Shown piece after piece: positions 1-10,716 of a DNA stretch of 10,716 bases. The notes beneath the pieces were generated by a model. It was given only the letters and a program-made list of their open reading frames with translations, was not told where the DNA came from and did no database searches. The translations under genes were made by a program, and so were the position numbers. The stretch is taken from contig LNGC01000051.1 of the NCBI GenBank assembly GCA_001587715.1, forward strand, positions 1-10,716. The letters are read 5' to 3'. Numbering within the stretch: the stretch's first letter is position 1; each line of letters begins with the position of its first letter. The stretch is from Candidatus Methanofastidiosum methylothiophilum (GTDB lineage Archaea > Methanobacteriota_B > Thermococci > Methanofastidiosales > Methanofastidiosaceae).

Positions 1-2
1 GG

Positions 3-815
3 TATGATTTAGTATTCCAACATAACAGGGAGTTTCTATTAAGTCCTAGGGGTCATGGTAAAACAATGTTTTTACCAAGGTCGGTTCTAGAACATGAAAC
101 CCTTTTTAATAAAAATTTTAATTCCCTAATTATTGGTAAAACATATAAACAAGCCAATAAAACTTTAAAAGTAGTTAAGACAGATTTAGAAGAAAATAAA
201 CTTATTTTAAGAGACTTTGGGGAAGAGCTAGATGAGTATGATTCAGTTGGGAATCAACTTTGGTATAATATAGATACTACTGACCAAATTTTAAGGGATG
301 CAACTGTAGAAGCTAATGGATTATTAGGGGATATTACAGGGGGTCATTTTAACCTTATTATCCTTGATGATATTATAGATGATGCAAATTGTCTAACCCC
401 AGATAGTAGAAGAAAAGTAATGGAATGGGTACAGGGTACAATTATTCCAATGCTTAAACCGGGAGGGTATATTTCTGGTATAGGAACTAGAAAGCATTAT
501 GATGATGCATACCAAGAGATGATAGACAGCCCCGGATGGTATGTTATTCAACAAAAAGCTATTCTCAAAATGCCCAAAAGTTTTGAATATGTTTATAAAA
601 CCATAGGTGGGCAGCAAATAGCAGTAGGAATTAAAAATGTAGTAGGGGAGTATAAAGTATTATGGCCCGATGTATGGTCATTAGAATTATTATTATTAGA
701 AAAGAAAACAATGGGGAGTATCTTATTTAATAGGGAATACAATAACGATACTTCCCAGATGAAGGGTAAGATATTAAAAGACTTCTGGCTGAATAAGTAT
801 GTAATAATGAAATAA
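3..815 (+). CDS. terL: Large terminase subunit, N-terminal ATPase domain. It is 5'-partial: the reading frame is open back to the window edge.
   Basis: Frame 0 has no stop between nt 3 and the annotated ATG at 66. The upstream translation reads YDLVFQHNREFLLSPRGHGKTMF, i.e. a Walker A P-loop (RGHGKT) lying before the annotated Met, so the true start is upstream of the window. The Walker B-like motif is FNLIILDDIIDD. The C-terminal stretch LWPDVWSLELLLLEKKTMGSILFNREY resembles the terminase ATPase-to-nuclease linker. Its position just ahead of the portal fits. Confidence 0.8.
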   Translation, partial: YDLVFQHNREFLLSPRGHGKTMFLPRSVLEHETLFNKNFNSLIIGKTYKQANKTLKVVKTDLEENKLILRDFGEELDEYDSVGNQLWYNIDTTDQILRDATVEANGLLGDITGGHFNLIILDDIIDDANCLTPDSRRKVMEWVQGTIIPMLKPGGYISGIGTRKHYDDAYQEMIDSPGWYVIQQKAILKMPKSFEYVYKTIGGQQIAVGIKNVVGEYKVLWPDVWSLELLLLEKKTMGSILFNREYNNDTSQMKGKILKDFWLNKYVIMK

Positions 816-1366
816 ATGCTACAGAGGATATTAAACTGGCACCCCCACTAGATTCTATGACTATATACCAAGGATGGGATTTAGCAATAAGAGAAAAAGA
901 AACATCTGATTATGTAGTATGTACTACCATAGGGGTAACTCCTAAAAATAAGATATATGTACTGGATTGGTTTAGGGATAGGATGGCATTCCCAGACCAA
1001 GTAAAACAGGTGAGAGAATTATATGATGAATTTAGACCTGAAAGAATTGCAATAGAAACTAATGCATATCAGTTAGCATTAAAGCAACAGGTTCTAACTG
1101 AAAGAATATTACCTATAAAAGAGATAGAGAATATTAAGAATAAAGTACAGAGAATAATTTTAAGTTCAGTGAATTATGAAAATGGGTTAGTGTATCTCCC
1201 AATAGACCACCCTTATTATAATGCATTTATGGATGAATATAGGACATTTGATGATGGAACTCACGATGATATGTTAGATAGTTTAGACATGGCGATGAGG
1301 TTAATATTAGAACCAAAAGGAATACCATTTAAACGAGGTTTAAGGAGTAAGGTACATGCAAGATAA
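797..1366 (+). CDS. terL: Large terminase subunit, C-terminal RNaseH-like nuclease domain. It lies in the -1 frame relative to the ATPase fragment; the annotated ORF starts at ATG 857, but the frame is open from 797.
   Basis: The translation (MTIYQGWDLA...YVVCTTIGV...IYVLDWFRDR...RIAIETNAYQ...DDGTHDDMLDSLDMA) matches the terminase nuclease-domain pattern: an Asp early in strand 1, a central acidic residue in IAIE, and a C-terminal HDD..D. There is no SD upstream of ATG 857. This frame is open back to 797 and overlaps the end of the ATPase ORF. Confidence 0.75.
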   Translation, partial: VCNNEINATEDIKLAPPLDSMTIYQGWDLAIREKETSDYVVCTTIGVTPKNKIYVLDWFRDRMAFPDQVKQVRELYDEFRPERIAIETNAYQLALKQQVLTERILPIKEIENIKNKVQRIILSSVNYENGLVYLPIDHPYYNAFMDEYRTFDDGTHDDMLDSLDMAMRLILEPKGIPFKRGLRSKVHAR

Positions 1367-5113: not shown

Positions 5114-5830
5114 ATGAAACAAAAAGGTAAAGAAAATGATACTCAGGGAGAAGATGAAAAAATGGGGTTACTAAAGAAAACCTTAAGTACCCTAAAAGAG
5201 GTTAAAGATGCATTAACTGGAGAGGAAGGGAACCCCGGTGAAGAAGGGAATCCTGGAGAGGAAGGGAACCCCGGTGAAGAAGGGAATCCTGGAGAGGAAG
5301 GAAACCTAGAAAACCCTGCAGAAGAAGATGGAGAAGGGGAAGAAGGGGAAGGTGAAACATTGAAACCAAAAGATGTAAAAAGTATCCTTAAAAGGATAGA
5401 TGCCCTAGAACAGAAAGACTATAATCAGGAAAAAATAATCAAAAAACAGGGAGAAACAATTAAAAAACAAAACAAAACAATTGAAACCCTACAATCAGAT
5501 AAAACAGAAAAAATCCACAAAGGATTAGTCAAAGAAGCCCTTACATGTTCCAAAAAACTCAATGATACAACTGTTACCGATGAAAAATCCTTAGAAAAAG
5601 CTGTAAGGAAAGAACTAGATATAGACAAAGAAAAAGAAGTTACCGATGCAGACATTAACACCTATGTAAAAGGACTAAAGATAGCAATGAAAAGGATACC
5701 CGATGGGTATGTACCAATAATAACAGATGAAACAGTCCAGAAAGAACAGGATAAAACCAAACAAAAAATCAAAAAAATGAGAGAAAATATGAGTAAACAT
5801 GGGGTAGTTGGGGCAGAGGAATCTGAATAA
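5114..5830 (+). CDS. Putative scaffolding protein (238 aa, highly charged, with an (EEGNPG)5 repeat)
   Basis: SD is TAGGAGG. The composition is extremely K/E-rich and coiled-coil-prone (KEVKDALTGEEG..., IIKKQGETIKKQNKTIETLQ). The gene lies between the protease and the capsid gene, which is typical scaffold position and composition. Confidence 0.6.
   Translation: MKQKGKENDTQGEDEKMGLLKKTLSTLKEVKDALTGEEGNPGEEGNPGEEGNPGEEGNPGEEGNLENPAEEDGEGEEGEGETLKPKDVKSILKRIDALEQKDYNQEKIIKKQGETIKKQNKTIETLQSDKTEKIHKGLVKEALTCSKKLNDTTVTDEKSLEKAVRKELDIDKEKEVTDADINTYVKGLKIAMKRIPDGYVPIITDETVQKEQDKTKQKIKKMRENMSKHGVVGAEESE
5221..5310 (+). repeat. In-frame tandem repeat. A 36-nt unit (gaggaagggaaccccggtgaagaagggaatcctgga) occurs twice perfectly, followed by a degenerate third copy. 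It encodes EEGNPG five times.
   Basis: Direct reading: 5221-5256 and 5257-5292 are identical; 5293-5310 diverges (gaggaaggaaacctagaa). Confidence 0.9.
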
Positions 5831-7254: not shown

Positions 7255-7746
7255 ATGAAGCCAATGCCAGAAGAAGAAGGAAAAAAGGTAGAAGCTACTG
7301 GAACTATTTTGGAGGAAATAAATAGTGAAGAAGAAGCAGATAAAGCTATAGAAATTGCACAACAAAAAAAGGCAGAGCTAAAAATTAAACAGCATGAAAA
7401 AGAGCTAAGGAAAATTAAGTGCAAATGTGGAAAATCTTTAAAAGTAAATCCTAAAGATTTCATGGGAAGAGATGGAACCAGAGCTAAGAGATATACCTGC
7501 GAAAAATGCCAGTTACAAACTAAAGTCCAAGTAACATATAATAAGGAACTAGGAGAACTAGAACTTAAAATTAATAGGTTACAAAAAGCATGGGTAGAAA
7601 TGCACCCAAGCAAATTATCCGATGACCAGATAAAAGAATGGGTTAAGGATGAAGTGGAAAACCTAAAAAGAGGAAGGAGTAAGTTTCCAAGGAAAGAAGA
7701 GCAGATATTACTTAGGGCAATAGATTTAGCGATAAATCCAAAATAA
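7255..7746 (+). CDS. Zinc-ribbon plus coiled-coil protein, 163 aa by the track. The functional start is more likely Met4 at 7264, which has better SD spacing.
   Basis: It carries C-x-C-x23-C-x2-C (KCKCGKS...YTCEKCQ). Charged helical regions flank the ribbon. AGGGAG lies 9 nt upstream of ATG 7264. Oligo-T tracts bracket both ends of the gene. Confidence 0.6.
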   Translation: MKPMPEEEGKKVEATGTILEEINSEEEADKAIEIAQQKKAELKIKQHEKELRKIKCKCGKSLKVNPKDFMGRDGTRAKRYTCEKCQLQTKVQVTYNKELGELELKINRLQKAWVEMHPSKLSDDQIKEWVKDEVENLKRGRSKFPRKEEQILLRAIDLAINPK

Positions 7747-7789: not shown

Positions 7790-8197
7790 ATGACTAATGC
7801 AGTATATAGTAAAGCTAAAGAGAAAATGTTACAAGCAGGAATTGACTTAGTAACTGGAGATGTTAAGGCAATACTTGTAGATACCCTTAATTATTATGTA
7901 GATTTAGAAAACCATGATTTCCTAGACGATATTCCAGTTGTTGCAATAACTGCAACTAGTCCAGTATTAACTAATAAATCCATAGCAGGGGGGGTATTTG
8001 ATGCAGATAATATAACCTTTACATTAGTATCTGGGAATGAAAGTGAAGCTATAATATTATATATAGATACTGGAACTGAATCAGAAAGCCCACTTATAGC
8101 ATATATTGACACTGCAACAGGACTTCCAATAACCCCTAACGGTGGAGATATAGTAATAGAATGGGATAACGGAGCTAATAAAATTTTCAGATTATAA
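7790..8197 (+). CDS. Small beta-rich conserved virion-protein candidate (135 aa), encoded just upstream of the fibre gene. It may be a fibre-attachment or adaptor protein.
   Basis: SD GAGGTGGG at -8. The C-terminal motif TPNGGDIVIEWDNGANKIFRL and the central FDADNITF...ILYIDTG pattern look like a conserved phage structural family seen upstream of fibre genes. That recognition comes from memory and is not verified. Confidence 0.5.
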   Translation: MTNAVYSKAKEKMLQAGIDLVTGDVKAILVDTLNYYVDLENHDFLDDIPVVAITATSPVLTNKSIAGGVFDADNITFTLVSGNESEAIILYIDTGTESESPLIAYIDTATGLPITPNGGDIVIEWDNGANKIFRL

Positions 8198-8215: not shown

Positions 8216-10576
8216 ATGACAATAACTGGTAGTGGAACCTCTGCTGACCCTTATATAATTTATACCCTAGATGATTTGGCATTAATAGGAACTAGTCCTT
8301 ATACTTTGAATAAATATTTTAAGTTAAATAATGATATTGATGCCAGTCCTACTCAAGACCCTAGTTATAATGGAGGGACAGGTTGGAATCCAATAGGGAA
8401 TAGCACCACTAAATTTAGTGGAAATTTTAATGGGAATAATAAAACCATATCAGGATTATTTATTAATAAACCTACAACCGACAATATAGGTTTATTTGGA
8501 TACACCACTACAGGATTTAGTATTTATAATCTTATTTTGGAAGTAGATATTACTGGACAGAATAATGTAGGGGGATTACTAGGGTATTATGATGAGGTAA
8601 GTAATAGTGATGGGGATAGGGTATGGGGAATAACAGTACATGGAGAAGTAACTGGGAATAACCAAGTAGGAGGAATTGTTGGGGTTAAAGCCCACTATGG
8701 GTATATTGATGATTGTTATTCTGATGCAGTGGTTTCCGGTGCAAACCAAGTAGGAGGGATATTTGGACAACTTTTAAACCTTGGTTATAGGGGAATTGTT
8801 AAGTATTGTGATTTTGATGGAGTAGTTAATATTTCCGGGAGTAGAGGGGGATTAATAGGGGGGGAAGCTAATCAAGATGTTACTTATTGTAATGCTTATG
8901 GAGAGTTAAATGCCTCAGCAACTAGTGATTATATAGGAGGAATAATAGGATATGATATTAGCGAAGATATTAGTTATTGCAATTGCTATTCTAATATAAC
9001 TGGTAGAAATTATGTTGGAGGAATAGTAGGAACTAAAACAAAATACAATGCAATTAGTTTCTGTAGGGCTTACGGAGTAATTACTGGTAATGAGAGGGTA
9101 GGGGGTATTGCAGGACACCATGGAACTAGGGGTTATGGAAGTACATTACAAGATTGTTATTTTAGGGGAGAAATAAATGCAACTGGAAATTATGTAGGAG
9201 GCATTGCAGGGAGTTGTAGTTGGTTAATTCAAAGATGTTTAGTATCAAGTGATACAGTAATTAACAGCCCTAATTCAAGTTATGTGGGGGGAATTGTTGG
9301 ATTAGGTAATCATGGCCCGATTAATAATTGTATAAACCTTATAGATATTAATGGGATAGATTATGTGGGGGGCATTGCAGGGAAGAAGGAATTATATGAT
9401 AGTTATGTGGAAGTTCAAAACTATGGAAACATTACCGGAAGGGATTATGTAGGGGGAATTACTGGATACTTTTCTAATTATGATTATGCCCAAGACCACA
9501 AACAATGTATAAACTATGGAAACATTACTGGAAGGAATTATGTAGGGGGAATAGCAGGTAGATGTGACTGTAGGAATTGGGAATGTTATAATAGGGGAAA
9601 AGTATCTGGGCAAAATAATGTAGGGGGAATATTTGGGCATTTATATTCAAAATATATAAGTAGAGCATATAATACAGGGCAGGTTATAGGAACAGGAACA
9701 GGAATAGGGGGATTAGTTGGAAGCATTAGTGGGAGTGGGGGGGATACAAATAGTTTCTGGGATGTTGAAACTAGTGGAATAGCTATAAGTGCAAGGGGTA
9801 CAGGAAAGACTACAGCAGAAATGAAAACCCAATCAACATATACAGGATGGGATTTCACGACCCCAGTATGGTTAATTAACCCTATTTTCAATGATGGTTA
9901 TCCTTATTTAAATATTCCTAAATTTATTAGAGTTTTATCCCCAAATGGGATTACTTCTACAGAAGGATTAGGGATTCCTCTAATCAGAATAACAGTCATA
10001 CATATTATGGCAAATGGAGTTCCTTCTACTCTTCTATTTGGAATACCTAAACTTTCTGCCATACTCAGAATACAGGGCATAGATGGAACTATACAGCTAG
10101 GAATTTTTAAAACCTTAATGGAAGTTGCACTCAAAGGGAAAGGAATTAAACTATTAGATTTTGGTACTTTAAAAACATTGATGGAAGTAAGGGTAGTAGA
10201 TGGGGGAATCCCTAGTAGTATTGAACTAGGAATCCCAATGGCAATGTATCAGATAAGCCCAGAGGGAATAGACAATAGTATCACTATGGGAACTATTACA
10301 TTAATCTGGGATGAATTTATTAGACCTAATGGATTAGATTCATTTATTAGTTTTGGGGAATTAGTAACTTATATTAGATATTGGAAGGAAAATATTGAGT
10401 TTACATTAAAAGGAAGTAAAACTAATTTTGACCAAGTAGGGGGGGATATTAGATTTTTAATAGAAACCCCTAGTACAGAATTTGAACTTAAAAAACCTAC
10501 TACCCGGTTTGAATTAATACAACCAAGGGCTGGAACTAAGTTAAAATCTCAGACAATTTTTGAATTAAGAAAATAG
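8216..10576 (+). CDS. GLUG-repeat fibre or adhesin-like protein (786 aa), a candidate receptor-binding protein
   Basis: The N-terminal module GSGTSADPYIIYTLDDLALIG...YFKLNNDIDAS...WNPIGN...FSGNFNGNNKTISGLFINKPTTDNIGLFG is the typical head of GLUG-domain surface proteins. It carries 14 repeats of about 29 aa built on N-x-V-G-G-(I/L)-x-G (residues about 116-510), the closing motif TYTGWDFTTPVWLI...GYPYL, then about 7 repeats of about 22 aa (NG-I-x-S-x4-G-I-P-x6-I) and three FEL mini-repeats at the end. No HExxH or other protease motif was found. Confidence 0.85.
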   Translation: MTITGSGTSADPYIIYTLDDLALIGTSPYTLNKYFKLNNDIDASPTQDPSYNGGTGWNPIGNSTTKFSGNFNGNNKTISGLFINKPTTDNIGLFGYTTTGFSIYNLILEVDITGQNNVGGLLGYYDEVSNSDGDRVWGITVHGEVTGNNQVGGIVGVKAHYGYIDDCYSDAVVSGANQVGGIFGQLLNLGYRGIVKYCDFDGVVNISGSRGGLIGGEANQDVTYCNAYGELNASATSDYIGGIIGYDISEDISYCNCYSNITGRNYVGGIVGTKTKYNAISFCRAYGVITGNERVGGIAGHHGTRGYGSTLQDCYFRGEINATGNYVGGIAGSCSWLIQRCLVSSDTVINSPNSSYVGGIVGLGNHGPINNCINLIDINGIDYVGGIAGKKELYDSYVEVQNYGNITGRDYVGGITGYFSNYDYAQDHKQCINYGNITGRNYVGGIAGRCDCRNWECYNRGKVSGQNNVGGIFGHLYSKYISRAYNTGQVIGTGTGIGGLVGSISGSGGDTNSFWDVETSGIAISARGTGKTTAEMKTQSTYTGWDFTTPVWLINPIFNDGYPYLNIPKFIRVLSPNGITSTEGLGIPLIRITVIHIMANGVPSTLLFGIPKLSAILRIQGIDGTIQLGIFKTLMEVALKGKGIKLLDFGTLKTLMEVRVVDGGIPSSIELGIPMAMYQISPEGIDNSITMGTITLIWDEFIRPNGLDSFISFGELVTYIRYWKENIEFTLKGSKTNFDQVGGDIRFLIETPSTEFELKKPTTRFELIQPRAGTKLKSQTIFELRK
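8561..9745 (+). repeat. Array of 14 GLUG-type coding repeats, with period about 81-99 nt
   Basis: The VGG(I/L) cores fall at residues 118, 151, 179, 211, 240, 267, 295, 327, 357, 384, 412, 443, 469 and 497 of the 8216 ORF. Near-identical DNA copies exist, e.g. 9424-9461 versus 9524-9561 (ctatggaaacattac[c/t]ggaagg[g/a]attatgtagggggaat). Confidence 0.85.
9944..10396 (+). repeat. C-terminal array of about 7 coding repeats of about 22 aa (NGITSTEGLGIPLIRITVIHIMA, NGVPSTLLFGIPKLSAILRIQGI, DGTIQLGIFKTLMEV..., GGIPSSIELGIPMAMYQISPE, GIDNSITMGTITLIWDEFIRP, NGLDSFISFGELVTYIRYWKE)
   Basis: Read from the translation. The pair FKTLMEVALKGKGI / LKTLMEVRVVDGGI is also visible as similar DNA at about 10108-10150 and 10168-10210. 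Confidence 0.6.
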
Positions 10577-10588
10577 GAGGGAAGGAGC

Positions 10589-10716
10589 ATGGATACAGTA
10601 AATGAAAATTCAACTAGGGATATTAAAATTAGTTTTACAAGCCACTTAGGAAATCCAGTAACCCCGGACAGATGTTTATATAAACTAACTGATTTAGAAA
10701 GTCTTACAGAGATAGT
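10589..10716 (+). CDS. Start of the next + strand gene (MDTVNENSTRDIKISFTSHLGNPVTPDRCLYKLTDLESLTEI...). It is truncated by the window end and its function is unknown.
   Basis: Strong SD (AGGAGGGAAGGAG) lies 5-8 nt upstream of the ATG. It keeps the same strand and spacing as the rest of the operon. Confidence 0.5.
   Translation, partial: MDTVNENSTRDIKISFTSHLGNPVTPDRCLYKLTDLESLTEI

What the first reader, a model, noticed from the sequence alone, without database searches (positions are those of the whole stretch)
8216..10576. Fibre/adhesin with GLUG repeats, a cysteine ladder and an unfamiliar C-terminal module, sited where a tail module would be expected
The 786-aa protein has the stereotyped N-terminal head of GLUG-domain surface proteins (PY..Y....L......Y.L.NDID.S....WNPIG.....F.G.F.GN...I..L.I).
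- Repeats: it carries 14 VGGI-centred repeats of about 29 aa and ends them with the canonical TYTGWDF...GYPYL.
- Cysteine ladder: almost every repeat has a Cys about 8-12 residues before the VGG core (DDCYSD, KYCDFDG, TYCNAYG, SYCNCYS, SFCRAYG, QDCYFRG, QRCLVSS, NNCINLI, KQCINYG, RCDCRNWECYNRG). The canonical GLUG repeat, as I recall it, has N-S-Y-A-T-G at this position. A Ser-to-Cys swap in every rung would stack one cysteine per turn of a presumed beta-helix, in a stacked metal-binding, thioether or disulfide-like arrangement.
- C-terminal module: the final 200 aa are a different repeat architecture, about 7 units of 22 aa (NG-I-x-S...G-I-P) plus three FEL mini-repeats. This part could be the actual receptor-binding tip or an intramolecular chaperone.
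- Context: for a capsid-associated GLUG protein this combination looks uncharacterised. It is the obvious host-range determinant.
Basis: partly seen in the sequence, partly recalled or inferred. Interest (0 to 1): 0.8.

Follow-up and report, generated by a model that had tools for sequence, protein, structure and literature searches.

The report
Swappable GLUG adhesin fibre of virus
This gene encodes a long surface fibre of a tailed virus found in a methanogen genome bin: a beta-helix 'sticky' domain borrowed from cell-surface proteins, joined to a repeat known from phage tail proteins; it is exchanged as a cassette between otherwise near-identical viruses, but its cysteine pattern is ordinary for the family.

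Summary
Two of its interpretations fail.

- **Cysteine ladder.** It is the family norm. Cys is the commonest residue at that rung position in 119 homologues (34%, against Ser 24%), and the solved GLUG-type structure 3n6z also has NCY rungs.
- **Genome position.** The gene is not in the tail-fibre slot. Syntenic relatives place it between the capsid gene and the head-tail connector genes, with the tape measure and tail-tip genes further downstream.

New findings:
- Residues 1-570 fold confidently as a GLUG/IgA1-protease-type right-handed beta-helix.
- The "unfamiliar" C-terminus is a divergent array of the GIxSxxxFG repeat of phage minor tail proteins (phrog_13352/8501), followed by a lineage-specific tail.
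- The 135-aa gene just upstream is a homologue of mycobacteriophage Bxb1 gp31, the "tail wing arm" (PDB 9d93). In mycobacteriophages this gene also sits next to GIxS-repeat proteins.
- Two viruses that are 97-100% identical across the portal-to-tape-measure region they share differ only in this cassette (31% identity).

Best reading: a virion-borne accessory adhesin fibre that affects adsorption specificity. Its attachment site is unknown. It is a new variant of a known kind, of moderate interest.

The parts
7790..8197 (+). 135-aa partner gene, a homologue of mycobacteriophage Bxb1 gp31 'tail wing arm' (phrog_644). It lies immediately upstream and co-varies with the GLUG cassette.
   Evidence: phrog_644 E 3.7e-42. 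PDB 9d93 'Tail wing arm, gp31' E 4.1e-15. It is 54-59% identical to Wildcat gp46 and Kumao gp33. Homologues sit directly upstream of GLUG genes in L001, L002, L003, L004 and L008. Identity is 72.6% between L001 and L002, against 97-100% for the other genes.
8216..10576 (+). Whole ORF: 786-aa GLUG fibre/adhesin (NCBI AMQ22_01234), with no signal peptide and no transmembrane segment.
   Evidence: The maximum 19-residue hydropathy is 1.54 and is not at the N-terminus.
8216..8500 (+). N-terminal cap ('head') of the beta-helix, residues 1-95 (GSGT..DPY ... GLFG).
   Evidence: It matches the consensus of 52 homologues. pLDDT is 89-98. Identity is 56-82% between cassette alleles.
8501..9754 (+). Beta-helix rungs, residues 96-513: 14 VGG-centred repeats of about 29 aa, with Cys at the rung turn position in 10 rungs. 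This is the most variable part of the protein.
   Evidence: pLDDT above 90. Identity is only 27-31% between alleles, and the length varies from 306 to 418 aa. One recent rung duplication lies at 9418-9459 / 9511-9552.
9755..9910 (+). C-terminal cap of the GLUG domain, residues 514-565 (FWDVETSG...TYTGWDF...GYPYL).
   Evidence: consensus FWDTETSGQ..S..GTGKTT.EMKT..TYT.WDF..IW.I....N.GYPYL. pLDDT is 79-98.
9944..10372 (+). Array of 7 'GIxSxxxFG' units of about 22 aa, residues 577-719. It is homologous to the repeat of phage minor tail proteins (phrog_13352/8501).
   Evidence: phrog_13352 E 1.2e-6. A profile of this region finds 588 representative proteins. All ten of those hits that were scanned match phrog_13352, at E 2.6e-16 to 4e-164. 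It matches Kumao gp32 and Wildcat gp45. AF2 gives no confident model.
10373..10573 (+). Lineage-specific C-terminal tail, residues 720-786, with short beta-strand mini-repeats (IEFTL, IRFLI, TEFEL, TRFEL, TIFEL). It is the proposed virion-proximal anchor.
   Evidence: In 1.84 billion representatives it is found only in the same virus group plus one weak hit. Between divergent alleles it is better conserved (36-38%) than the adjacent repeats (18-22%).
10590..10716 (+). Start of the next gene, cut by the contig end. It is the homologue of the 111-aa protein that precedes the head-tail adaptor in relatives.
   Evidence: Synteny with L001 12380-12715. The first two thirds of it belong to the variable cassette.

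Best explanation
The gene encodes a virion-borne accessory fibre (adhesin) of a tailed virus or provirus binned with Ca. Methanofastidiosum.

**Proposed parts**
- The N-terminal 570 residues form a GLUG-type right-handed beta-helix. This is the same module used by cellular surface proteins and IgA1 proteases. It is proposed to be the distal, ligand-binding and rapidly exchanged part.
- The C-terminal 220 residues are seven GIxSxxxFG units plus a lineage-specific beta-strand tail. They are proposed to form the shaft and anchor.
- This C-terminal part is proposed to dock the protein to the particle together with the product of the upstream 135-aa gene, a homologue of the Bxb1 'tail wing arm'.

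**Role**
- The cassette is swapped by recombination between near-identical viruses. It therefore most likely tunes adsorption specificity: to the host envelope, or to the matrix in which hosts live.
- By analogy with Bxb1 wings it is probably an auxiliary adhesin, not the essential tail-tip receptor-binding protein.
- The cysteines are an ordinary small-residue stack of the GLUG rung, with no special chemistry implied.

**Shown:** fold, homologies, synteny, cassette exchange, pairing with the arm gene.
**Inferred:** presence in the virion, orientation (N-terminus distal), site of attachment (neck, capsid or tail), the ligand.
For: - **Viral structural operon.** The window has terminase, a 480-aa ORF that occupies the portal slot in the syntenic relatives, S78 protease, a scaffold-like gene and an HK97-type capsid protein upstream, all on the + strand.
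- **Conserved slot.** Relatives L001, L002 and L004 continue with a head-tail adaptor (phrog_541), Neck1 (phrog_5), a tube-like 239-aa protein, a tape measure of 1,120 aa (PF10145) and tail-tip genes. A different virus lineage (L006) has a GLUG gene in the same slot.
- **Fold.** AF2 gives pLDDT above 90 for residues 1-570 as a beta-helix. The best structural match is 3n6z, then the IgA1-protease N-domains, then tailspikes. A family profile hits 3n6z at E 4.6e-30.
- **Not a secreted cell protein.** There is no signal peptide or transmembrane segment. The gap to the upstream gene is 18 nt.
- **Cassette exchange.** L001 and L002 are 97-100% identical in protein from portal to tape measure. The exceptions are the GLUG protein at 31% and its immediate flanks. 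DNA homology stops and restarts at the gene borders.
- **Where it varies.** Within the protein the rungs vary most. P0011 and the L004 protein are 30% identical in the rungs but 59-81% in the cap, C-repeats and tail.
- **C-terminal repeat.** It is the phage minor-tail-protein repeat.
- **Arm partner.** The upstream gene is a homologue of the solved virion protein Bxb1 gp31. It is adjacent to GIxS-repeat proteins in Kumao, Wildcat, FeliMaine and prophiFSIL01-1.
- **GLUG genes at tail tips elsewhere.** In L007 and L011 a GLUG protein sits directly after the tape measure and Dit genes.
Against: - No direct evidence places the protein in virions.
- The C-terminal 216 residues could not be modelled: pLDDT is below 50 in the full-length run and 42.7 with a repeat-enriched alignment. 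The shaft/anchor role is therefore inference.
- The Pfam GLUG score is below the gathering threshold.
- The gene lies in the head/neck part of the operon, whereas the characterised arm homologue and the GIxS proteins are tail-tip components. The site of attachment is therefore open.
- Bxb1 gp30 (wing base) and gp33 (brush) have no detectable counterpart here.
- Host assignment rests on metagenomic binning only. No relatives were found in GTDB representative genomes.
- The window's TerL carries a frameshift, so this copy could belong to a defective element.
Confidence: 0.6

Rival explanations
1. It is the primary receptor-binding tail fibre or tailspike of the virus. It would be encoded out of the usual order, assembled at the tail tip, and essential for infection.
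For: - Beta-helix fold, with weak similarity to tailspikes and to the phi29 gp12 appendage.
- Cassette hypervariability typical of receptor-binding proteins.
- GLUG proteins occupy the post-tape-measure/Dit slot in L007 and L011.
- The arm homologue and the GIxS-repeat proteins are tail-tip components in mycobacteriophages.
Against: - In four syntenic relatives and in a separate lineage, the gene lies between the capsid and connector genes, not after the tape measure.
- The IMG/VR relative of this virus has a further set of tail-tip genes of 245, 266, 131, 403, 444, 389 and 333 aa after the tape measure. These could supply the primary receptor-binding protein.
- The Bxb1 wing to which the arm belongs is dispensable (PMC12646305).
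Confidence: 0.17
2. It is a capsid decoration or head fibre. The C-terminal tail would bind the capsid lattice and the beta-helix would project from the head, mediating adherence to surfaces or matrix in the manner of Hoc or phi29 gp8.5.
For: The gene follows the major capsid protein gene by two small genes and precedes all connector genes. This holds in two virus lineages.
Against: - No homology to any known decoration protein.
- Both recognisable partners, the GIxS repeat and the wing-arm homologue, are known only from tail appendages.
- Gene order alone is weak evidence of location.
Confidence: 0.13
3. It is an enzymatic tailspike: the beta-helix would be a depolymerase that degrades a host surface polymer rather than simply binding it.
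For: It has a right-handed parallel beta-helix. Foldseek lists capsule depolymerases, pectate lyases and tailspikes among weaker matches.
Against: - Those matches have E of 0.08 or worse, TM of 0.29 or less, and rmsd above 10 A.
- The significant matches are non-catalytic GLUG/IgA1-protease N-domains.
- No catalytic family was detected in Pfam.
- The rung surface is the least conserved part of the protein.
Confidence: 0.05
4. It is not a virion protein: a host-type adhesin carried as cargo (a moron) and expressed from the provirus on the cell surface.
For: - The N-terminal 570 aa are homologous to thousands of cellular GLUG surface proteins.
- The TerL frameshift hints that this copy may be a resident or defective provirus.
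Against: - No signal peptide, transmembrane segment or cell-anchoring domain. The cellular homologues carry T9SS or PGF-type sorting domains.
- Tight co-directional packing inside the structural operon.
- A conserved slot across relatives.
- A C-terminal phage minor-tail repeat and an adjacent virion-protein homologue.
Confidence: 0.05

Closest known systems
GLUG-motif proteins (Pfam PF07581), with or without Peptidase_M26_N. Solved example: PDB 3n6z (Bacteroides ovatus BACOVA_03286, 'putative IgA1 protease'). Also the N-terminal beta-helix domain of streptococcal/Gemella IgA1 proteases (6xja, 6xjb, 7uvk).
   Same: - Same N-terminal cap, VGG-centred rungs of about 28-30 aa with the I-x-N-C/S-Y turn, and the FWD...TYTxWDF...GYPYL end cap.
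- A family profile hits 3n6z at E 4.6e-30.
- 3n6z is the best Foldseek match (E 1e-4, TM 0.59 normalised to the target).
- The Cys ladder is shared.
   Different: - No signal peptide, no protease domain, and no cell-wall or T9SS anchor.
- Instead it carries a phage-type C-terminal repeat and sits in a viral structural operon.
- The Pfam model itself scores below its threshold.
Mycobacteriophage 'minor tail proteins' carrying the GIxSxExFG repeat (PHROG 13352 / 8501), for example Kumao gp32 and Wildcat gp45.
   Same: - Same repeat unit of about 22 aa.
- Same immediate genomic partner, the 135-aa phrog_644 protein.
   Different: - In Kumao and Wildcat the array is N-terminal (5 units), followed by a different globular domain, and the gene lies at the end of the tail-tip cluster.
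- Here the array is C-terminal, much more divergent (E 1e-6 to the PHROG), follows a GLUG helix, and the gene lies between the capsid and connector genes.
- The function and structure of the repeat are not established anywhere that I could find.
Bxb1 tail 'wing' (gp30 base, gp31 arm, gp33 brush); PDB 9d93; Freeman et al., Cell 2025 (cited in PMC12917162); PMC12646305.
   Same: - The gene upstream of the GLUG gene is a clear homologue of the arm, gp31 (E 4e-15).
- Like the wing, the GLUG fibre is best read as an accessory appendage.
   Different: - No counterpart of gp30 (D-Ala-D-Ala carboxypeptidase base) or of gp33 (glycine-rich brush).
- Bxb1 gp30 has no GIxS repeat.
- The attachment site in this virus is unknown.
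Beta-helix phage appendages and tailspikes (phi29 gp12, P22/HK620/CBA120 tailspikes).
   Same: A right-handed parallel beta-helix used as a virion-borne host-interaction module. Exchange is modular.
   Different: - Only weak structural similarity (E of 0.1 or worse).
- Those proteins anchor by the N-terminus. Here the conserved, virus-specific part is C-terminal.

Membership tests
GLUG motif family (Pfam PF07581) | Match to the Pfam GLUG HMM at or above the gathering score | tested here: not met
   16.2 bits against a cut-off of 20.5, E 0.014, one stretch at 291-321. The model is only 28 positions long.
GLUG motif family (Pfam PF07581) | Significant full-length homology to proteins that carry PF07581 | tested here: met
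   5,016 proteins at E of 1e-3 or better. The top hits have E down to 1e-152, most with PF07581 precomputed, and several are named 'GLUG motif-containing protein'.
GLUG motif family (Pfam PF07581) | Right-handed beta-helix of VGG-centred rungs with conserved N- and C-caps, as in solved 3n6z | tested here: met
   AF2 pLDDT above 90 for residues 1-570. Foldseek best hit is 3n6z. The profile hits 3n6z at E 4.6e-30. Cap motifs match the consensus.
GLUG motif family (Pfam PF07581) | Small residue (Cys or Ser) at the rung turn (I-x-N-C/S-Y) | tested here: met
   Ten rungs have Cys at this position. In the homologues it is Cys 34% and Ser 24%. 3n6z has NCY four times.
Phage minor-tail-protein GIxSxxxFG repeat (PHROG 13352 / 8501) | HMM match of the C-terminal region to the PHROG | tested here: met
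   phrog_13352 E 1.2e-6, 28 bits, residues 662-717. The match is weak but is supported by the reciprocal test in the next row.
Phage minor-tail-protein GIxSxxxFG repeat (PHROG 13352 / 8501) | A profile of the region retrieves bona fide family members | tested here: met
   Profile A2 finds 588 representative proteins. All ten that were scanned hit phrog_13352, at E 2.6e-16 to 4e-164. It also hits Kumao gp32 and Wildcat gp45.
Phage minor-tail-protein GIxSxxxFG repeat (PHROG 13352 / 8501) | Adjacent phrog_644 (wing-arm-like) gene | tested here: met
   Window 7790-8197. The same pairing occurs in Kumao, Wildcat, FeliMaine and prophiFSIL01-1.
Phage minor-tail-protein GIxSxxxFG repeat (PHROG 13352 / 8501) | Location in the tail-tip gene cluster, or on the tail | tested here: not met
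   The gene lies between the capsid and connector genes in the window's relatives. Physical location is not testable here.
Bxb1-type tail wing (gp30/gp31/gp33) | Arm protein (gp31) homologue | tested here: met
   PDB 9d93 chain 'Tail wing arm, gp31', E 4.1e-15.
Bxb1-type tail wing (gp30/gp31/gp33) | Base (gp30 carboxypeptidase) and brush (gp33 glycine-rich) homologues | tested here: not met
   BLASTP and HMM comparisons of the GLUG protein with gp30 and gp33 give nothing better than E 2.9. No such gene is in the window.
Tailspike depolymerases | Catalytic beta-helix with a recognisable enzyme family or active site | tested here: inconclusive
   Only weak fold matches (E of 0.08 or worse) and no Pfam enzyme domain. 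Activity is not testable here.
Capsid decoration / head fibre proteins | Binding to the capsid lattice | not testable with these tools
   Only the gene position after the capsid gene supports it. No homology to known decoration proteins.

The most novel reading that the evidence does not exclude
The arm-plus-fibre pair is a portable adhesion organ shared between bacteriophages and archaeal viruses. The arm protein is 54-59% identical between this element and mycobacteriophages. In this lineage the pair has been fitted with a beta-helix captured from cellular GLUG surface adhesins and mounted at the head-neck junction. The virus would then display the same kind of adhesin as cells in its habitat, and change its target by whole-cassette exchange. 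This would be a neck- or head-borne host-mimicking adhesin, not a classical tail fibre.
Probability: 0.15. Interest if true: 0.6.

Novelty: new variant of a known kind. Interest (0 to 1): 0.42.

Why it matters
Very little is known about how tailed viruses of methanogens and their relatives recognise cells.

- This locus gives a concrete, testable candidate for an adsorption-specificity cassette. Natural allele swaps exist in otherwise identical virus backbones.
- It assigns a context to two widespread but uncharacterised phage elements: the GIxSxxxFG repeat and the phrog_644 'wing arm' family. It links them across bacterial and (putatively) archaeal viruses.
- It removes a false lead. The cysteine ladder is a normal structural feature of GLUG beta-helices, not a new metal- or thioether-based chemistry.

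Tried and rejected
- **Special Cys ladder.** Rejected by rung statistics in 119 homologues, by PDB 3n6z, and by loss of 2 of 10 ladder Cys in the 66% orthologue.
- **C-terminal module structure.** The full-length AF2 run gave pLDDT below 50 for 571-786. A second run on the C-terminus, with a 32-sequence alignment enriched in repeat homologues, gave mean pLDDT 42.7. There is no usable model, so no structure search of the C-terminus was possible.
- **Sequence searches of the C-terminus.** The PDB gave nothing credible. Pfam gave nothing. Word-indexed homologue searches found only two fragments.
- **Close phage relatives of the whole window.** None by megablast.
- **Host confirmation through proviruses in GTDB representative genomes.** Two scans with the capsid protein found nothing.
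- **Genomic context of the MAG's second GLUG protein, P0019.** Not on record. Its relative P0023 was used instead.
- **Literature on GLUG in phages or archaeal viruses.** Nothing relevant was found. The primary Bxb1 structure paper is not held.
- **Diversity-generating retroelement-like repeats or long DNA repeats in the window.** Only weak rung repeats and one 42-nt rung duplication were found.
- **Coordinates of the AF2 model.** They are not available to scripts. Side-chain orientation and S-S distances of the ladder could not be measured; only the secondary-structure register could be used.
Full report

Yes. Window 8216..10576 (+) is one 786-aa ORF. It is identical to the NCBI protein AMQ22_01234 of a Candidatus Methanofastidiosum methylothiophilum MAG. 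The window is that protein's whole 10,716-nt contig.

The N-terminal motif, the repeats and the end cap are all present:
- There are 14 [VIR]GG[ILV] cores at residues 118-497, with mean spacing of 29 aa.
- The closing STYTGWDF...GYPYL lies at 541-565.
- All of these agree with the consensus of 52 aligned homologues.

All 14 cysteines lie between residues 167 and 457. Ten of them sit in the same register, 12-16 residues before a VGG core.

The last 220 residues contain seven units starting at 578, 601, 621, 643, 664, 684 and 706. They also contain three exact FEL motifs.

**2. The GLUG part**

Pfam's 28-position GLUG model scores only 16.2 bits (E 0.014), below its 20.5-bit threshold. Membership is nevertheless secure on other grounds:
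- 5,016 proteins match at E of 1e-3 or better. The best unrelated ones reach E 1e-152, and most carry PF07581.
- A profile of 52 family members hits the solved structure 3n6z (B. ovatus 'putative IgA1 protease') at E 4.6e-30. It also hits the N-terminal domains of IgA1 proteases at about 1e-15.
- AlphaFold2 models residues 1-570 with pLDDT mostly above 90, as a regular beta-helix.
- Foldseek's best PDB match is 3n6z (E 1e-4, TM 0.59 normalised to the target). IgA1 proteases follow. Tailspikes, pectate lyases and phi29 gp12 match only weakly.
- A few uncharacterised viral proteins in BFVD share the fold, including one from a metagenomic siphovirus named 'putative immunoglobulin A1 protease'.

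**3. The cysteine ladder**

In the model's secondary-structure register, the ladder Cys is always the second residue of the two-residue turn between two strands of a rung. This holds in 10 of 12 consecutive rungs; Val and Ala fill the other two. So the cysteines do line up, as any equivalent position in a beta-helix must.

This is the family norm, not a Ser-to-Cys innovation:
- In 1,627 rungs of the 119 best homologues, the position 12 residues before the core is Cys in 34% and Ser in 24%.
- The alignment consensus itself reads NCYS.
- 3n6z has IVNCY, IKNCY, IENCY and YENCY.
- The query's Cys content (1.78%) equals the homologue median (1.76%).
- Its ladder occupancy (9 of 13 by an automatic count) ranks 33rd of 120, against a median of 0.57.
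- In the 66%-identical orthologue P0002, two of the ten ladder Cys are replaced, by Gln and Asn.

I could not read model coordinates, so burial and S-S distances are untested. Nothing calls for metal, thioether or disulfide chemistry.

**4. Genomic context**

All genes in the window are on the + strand:
- TerL, in two ORFs;
- a 480-aa ORF, matched by no library here, that lines up with the portal-slot gene of the relatives (the L006 counterpart has a weak Phage_portal hit);
- a 356-aa gene;
- an S78 protease;
- a 238-aa acidic protein;
- a scaffold-like gene;
- an HK97-type capsid protein (PF04454/phrog_264);
- a 163-aa gene and a 135-aa gene;
- then the GLUG gene.

Three relatives do show it:
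- L001, a Logan contig of 36.6 kb, whose GLUG protein P0002 is 66% identical;
- L002, an ENA contig of 17 kb, carrying P0011 at 32% identity;
- L004/L005, from IMG/VR UViG_3300037067_020745 (57 kb).

In all three the gene order after the GLUG gene is: 111 aa, 133 aa (head-tail adaptor, phrog_541), 125 aa, 143 aa (Neck1/tail completion, phrog_5), 148 aa, 239 aa, 153 aa, 44 aa, then a tape measure of about 1,120 aa (PF10145). A tail-tip block follows, of 245, 266, 131, 403, 444, 389 and 333 aa.

The gene therefore lies at the head/neck boundary, not in the tail-fibre slot. A separate virus lineage (L006) carries P0023, a relative of the MAG's second GLUG protein P0019. Its GLUG gene occupies the same slot. 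In yet other viruses (L007, L011) a GLUG protein follows the tape measure and Dit genes directly.

**5. A swapped cassette**

L001 and L002 are 97-100% identical in protein for every shared gene from portal to tape measure. The exceptions are:
- the GLUG protein, at 31%;
- the 135-aa protein, at 72.6%;
- the 164-aa protein, at 85.6%;
- the 111-aa protein, at 79%.

At the DNA level, identity is 97-100% up to L001 position about 9300. It falls to about 70% through the end of the 164-aa gene and through the 135-aa gene. It vanishes across the GLUG gene, where L002 also has an extra 203-aa ORF. It recovers at about 12565, inside the 111-aa gene.

Within the protein, the rungs are the most variable region: 27-31% identity, with lengths from 306 to 418 aa. 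The C-terminal tail is better conserved (36-38%) than the adjacent repeats (18-22%). P0011 and the L004 protein are 30% identical in the rungs but 59-81% in the cap, C-repeats and tail.

This is the pattern expected of a virion protein whose distal part, the helix, meets a changing target while its proximal part, the C-terminus, meets a conserved particle. Two adjacent rungs share 95% DNA identity over 42 nt. Rung duplication therefore contributes to length change.

**6. The C-terminal module**

It is not unprecedented. A profile of residues 566-786 was searched exhaustively against 1.84 billion representative proteins. It finds 588 proteins (154 at E of 1e-10 or better). The matches come through positions 9-150, which are the GIxSxxxFG units, and usually appear as multi-copy arrays in proteins of 500-2,500 aa.

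All ten such hits that I scanned match PHROG 13352, annotated 'minor tail protein', at E 2.6e-16 to 4e-164. Five of them also match PHROG 8501. The query itself hits phrog_13352 at E 1.2e-6.

In annotated phages the repeat occurs in mycobacteriophage minor tail proteins such as Kumao gp32 and Wildcat gp45, as five N-terminal units. Among the representative proteins with a repeat match of E 1e-5 or better (131), the array is C-terminal in 68 and internal or unclassified in 59. It is N-terminal in only 3.

The last 65 or so residues hold the beta-strand mini-repeats, including the three FEL motifs. They are essentially confined to this virus group.

AF2 gave no confident model for this part, either in the full-length run or alone with a repeat-enriched alignment (mean pLDDT 42.7). 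Low confidence in a monomer prediction would be expected for an oligomeric fibre, but this does not demonstrate one.

**7. A conserved partner**

The 135-aa gene just upstream (7790-8197) matches phrog_644 at E 3.7e-42. It is 54-59% identical to proteins of mycobacteriophages Wildcat (gp46) and Kumao (gp33), and of Shewanella and Pseudomonas (Hollowayvirus) phages.

It is 37% identical to Bxb1 gp31, annotated 'tail wing arm' and solved in PDB 9d93 (E 4.1e-15). According to PMC12646305:
- the Bxb1 wing base gp30 contacts the tail spike;
- the arm gp31 and the brush gp33 contact only gp30;
- deleting gp30 leaves a viable phage with a modest defect.

In Kumao and Wildcat the arm homologue is the gene next to the GIxS-repeat protein; in FeliMaine and prophiFSIL01-1 the two matches lie about 1-2 kb apart in adjacently numbered genes. 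Homologous proteins of about 135 aa also sit immediately upstream of GLUG genes in two unrelated elements:
- L003, which also encodes a pseudomurein endoisopeptidase-type Peptidase_C71;
- L008.

The arm gene and a GIxS-bearing fibre gene therefore form a two-gene module that moves between very different viruses. The GLUG protein has no similarity to Bxb1 gp30 or gp33.

**8. Interpretation**

Shown:
- a GLUG-type beta-helix;
- a phage-type C-terminal repeat;
- an adjacent homologue of a solved virion protein;
- no export signals;
- tight packing in a structural operon;
- a conserved slot in relatives;
- whole-cassette replacement between near-identical viruses.

Inferred:
- the protein is a virion-borne accessory adhesin fibre;
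- the helix is distal and sets specificity;
- the C-terminus and the arm protein attach it to the particle.

Where it attaches is open. The gene position suggests the neck or capsid, while the known relatives of both partners are tail-tip components.

'The obvious host-range determinant' overstates the case, because other tail-tip proteins exist and the Bxb1 wing is dispensable. A non-virion 'cargo adhesin' reading is unlikely for the reasons listed as shown. A depolymerase role has no specific support.

**9. Caveats**

- The archaeal host assignment rests on binning alone. Two scans of GTDB representative genomes with the capsid protein found no provirus.
- The window's TerL carries a one-base deletion relative to the intact L001 gene. 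This could be an assembly error or a sign of a defective element.
- I found no literature on GLUG proteins in viruses.

**10. Verdict**

It is a new variant of a known kind: a modular phage fibre that combines a cell-type GLUG beta-helix with the minor-tail GIxS repeat and a wing-arm partner, in a putative archaeal virus. Interest is moderate (0.42).

Noticed in passing
window 1-1366 (junction near 806): The large terminase is split into two ORFs (66-815 and 857-1366) by a single-base deletion, relative to the intact 494-aa TerL of the relative L001. The contig also starts inside TerL. This is either an assembly error or a defective element.
   Followed up: yes
window 7790-8197: The 135-aa 'wing arm' homologue is 54-59% identical to mycobacteriophage proteins (Wildcat gp46, Kumao gp33). 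The rest of the window has no close phage relative by megablast. That is strikingly high conservation across putative archaeal and bacterial viruses with very different G+C content.
   Followed up: partly
window 5114-5830 (repeat at 5217-5306): A 238-aa acidic protein between the protease and scaffold-like genes carries a perfect (GEEGNP)x5 tandem repeat (18/36-nt period). Pfam and PHROGs score it weakly as collagen-like or tail-fibre-like. Its role is unknown.
   Followed up: no
window 7255-7746: A 163-aa protein between the capsid gene and the arm gene has a CxC...CxxC zinc-ribbon-like motif and no family match. The 3' part of its gene lies inside the variable cassette in the L001/L002 comparison.
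   Followed up: no
L002 6709-7320: The L002 relative carries an extra 203-aa ORF between the arm gene and its GLUG gene (weak phrog_31512 match). This ORF is absent from the window and from L001. In addition, the L002 GLUG protein P0011 has GIxS units at its N-terminus as well as its C-terminus.
   Followed up: partly
window 9418-9459 and 9511-9552: Two neighbouring beta-helix rungs share 95% DNA identity over 42 nt, indicating a recent rung duplication.
   Followed up: yes
L003 3504-8090; L008 8155-12142: Unrelated small-gene elements carry the same trio of genes: a protein of about 190 aa, an arm-like protein of about 135 aa, and a GLUG protein ending in GIxS units. In L003 the trio lies next to a Peptidase_C71 (pseudomurein endoisopeptidase-type) gene. 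In L008 it lies next to a PG_binding_1 protein. This suggests the cassette serves viruses of hosts with different cell walls.
   Followed up: partly
L006 12980-13387; L007 9558-9980; L011 6550-6972: In other GLUG-bearing viruses the small neighbouring gene is a PF23140 'Gp80' protein of 135-140 aa, not the phrog_644 arm. This would be a second type of partner.
   Followed up: no
L005 15016-18364: The 57-kb IMG/VR relative encodes glycosyltransferase- and methyltransferase-like proteins directly after its tail-tip genes.
   Followed up: no
P0003, P0006, P0024, P0037, P0041, P0042, P0044, P0074, P0083 (homologues): Many signal-peptide-less GLUG proteins end about 25 aa after GYPYL with a single unit of the form G[IL]DSxxxFGC. 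I did not determine whether these are complete proteins or ORFs that continue by frameshift.
   Followed up: no
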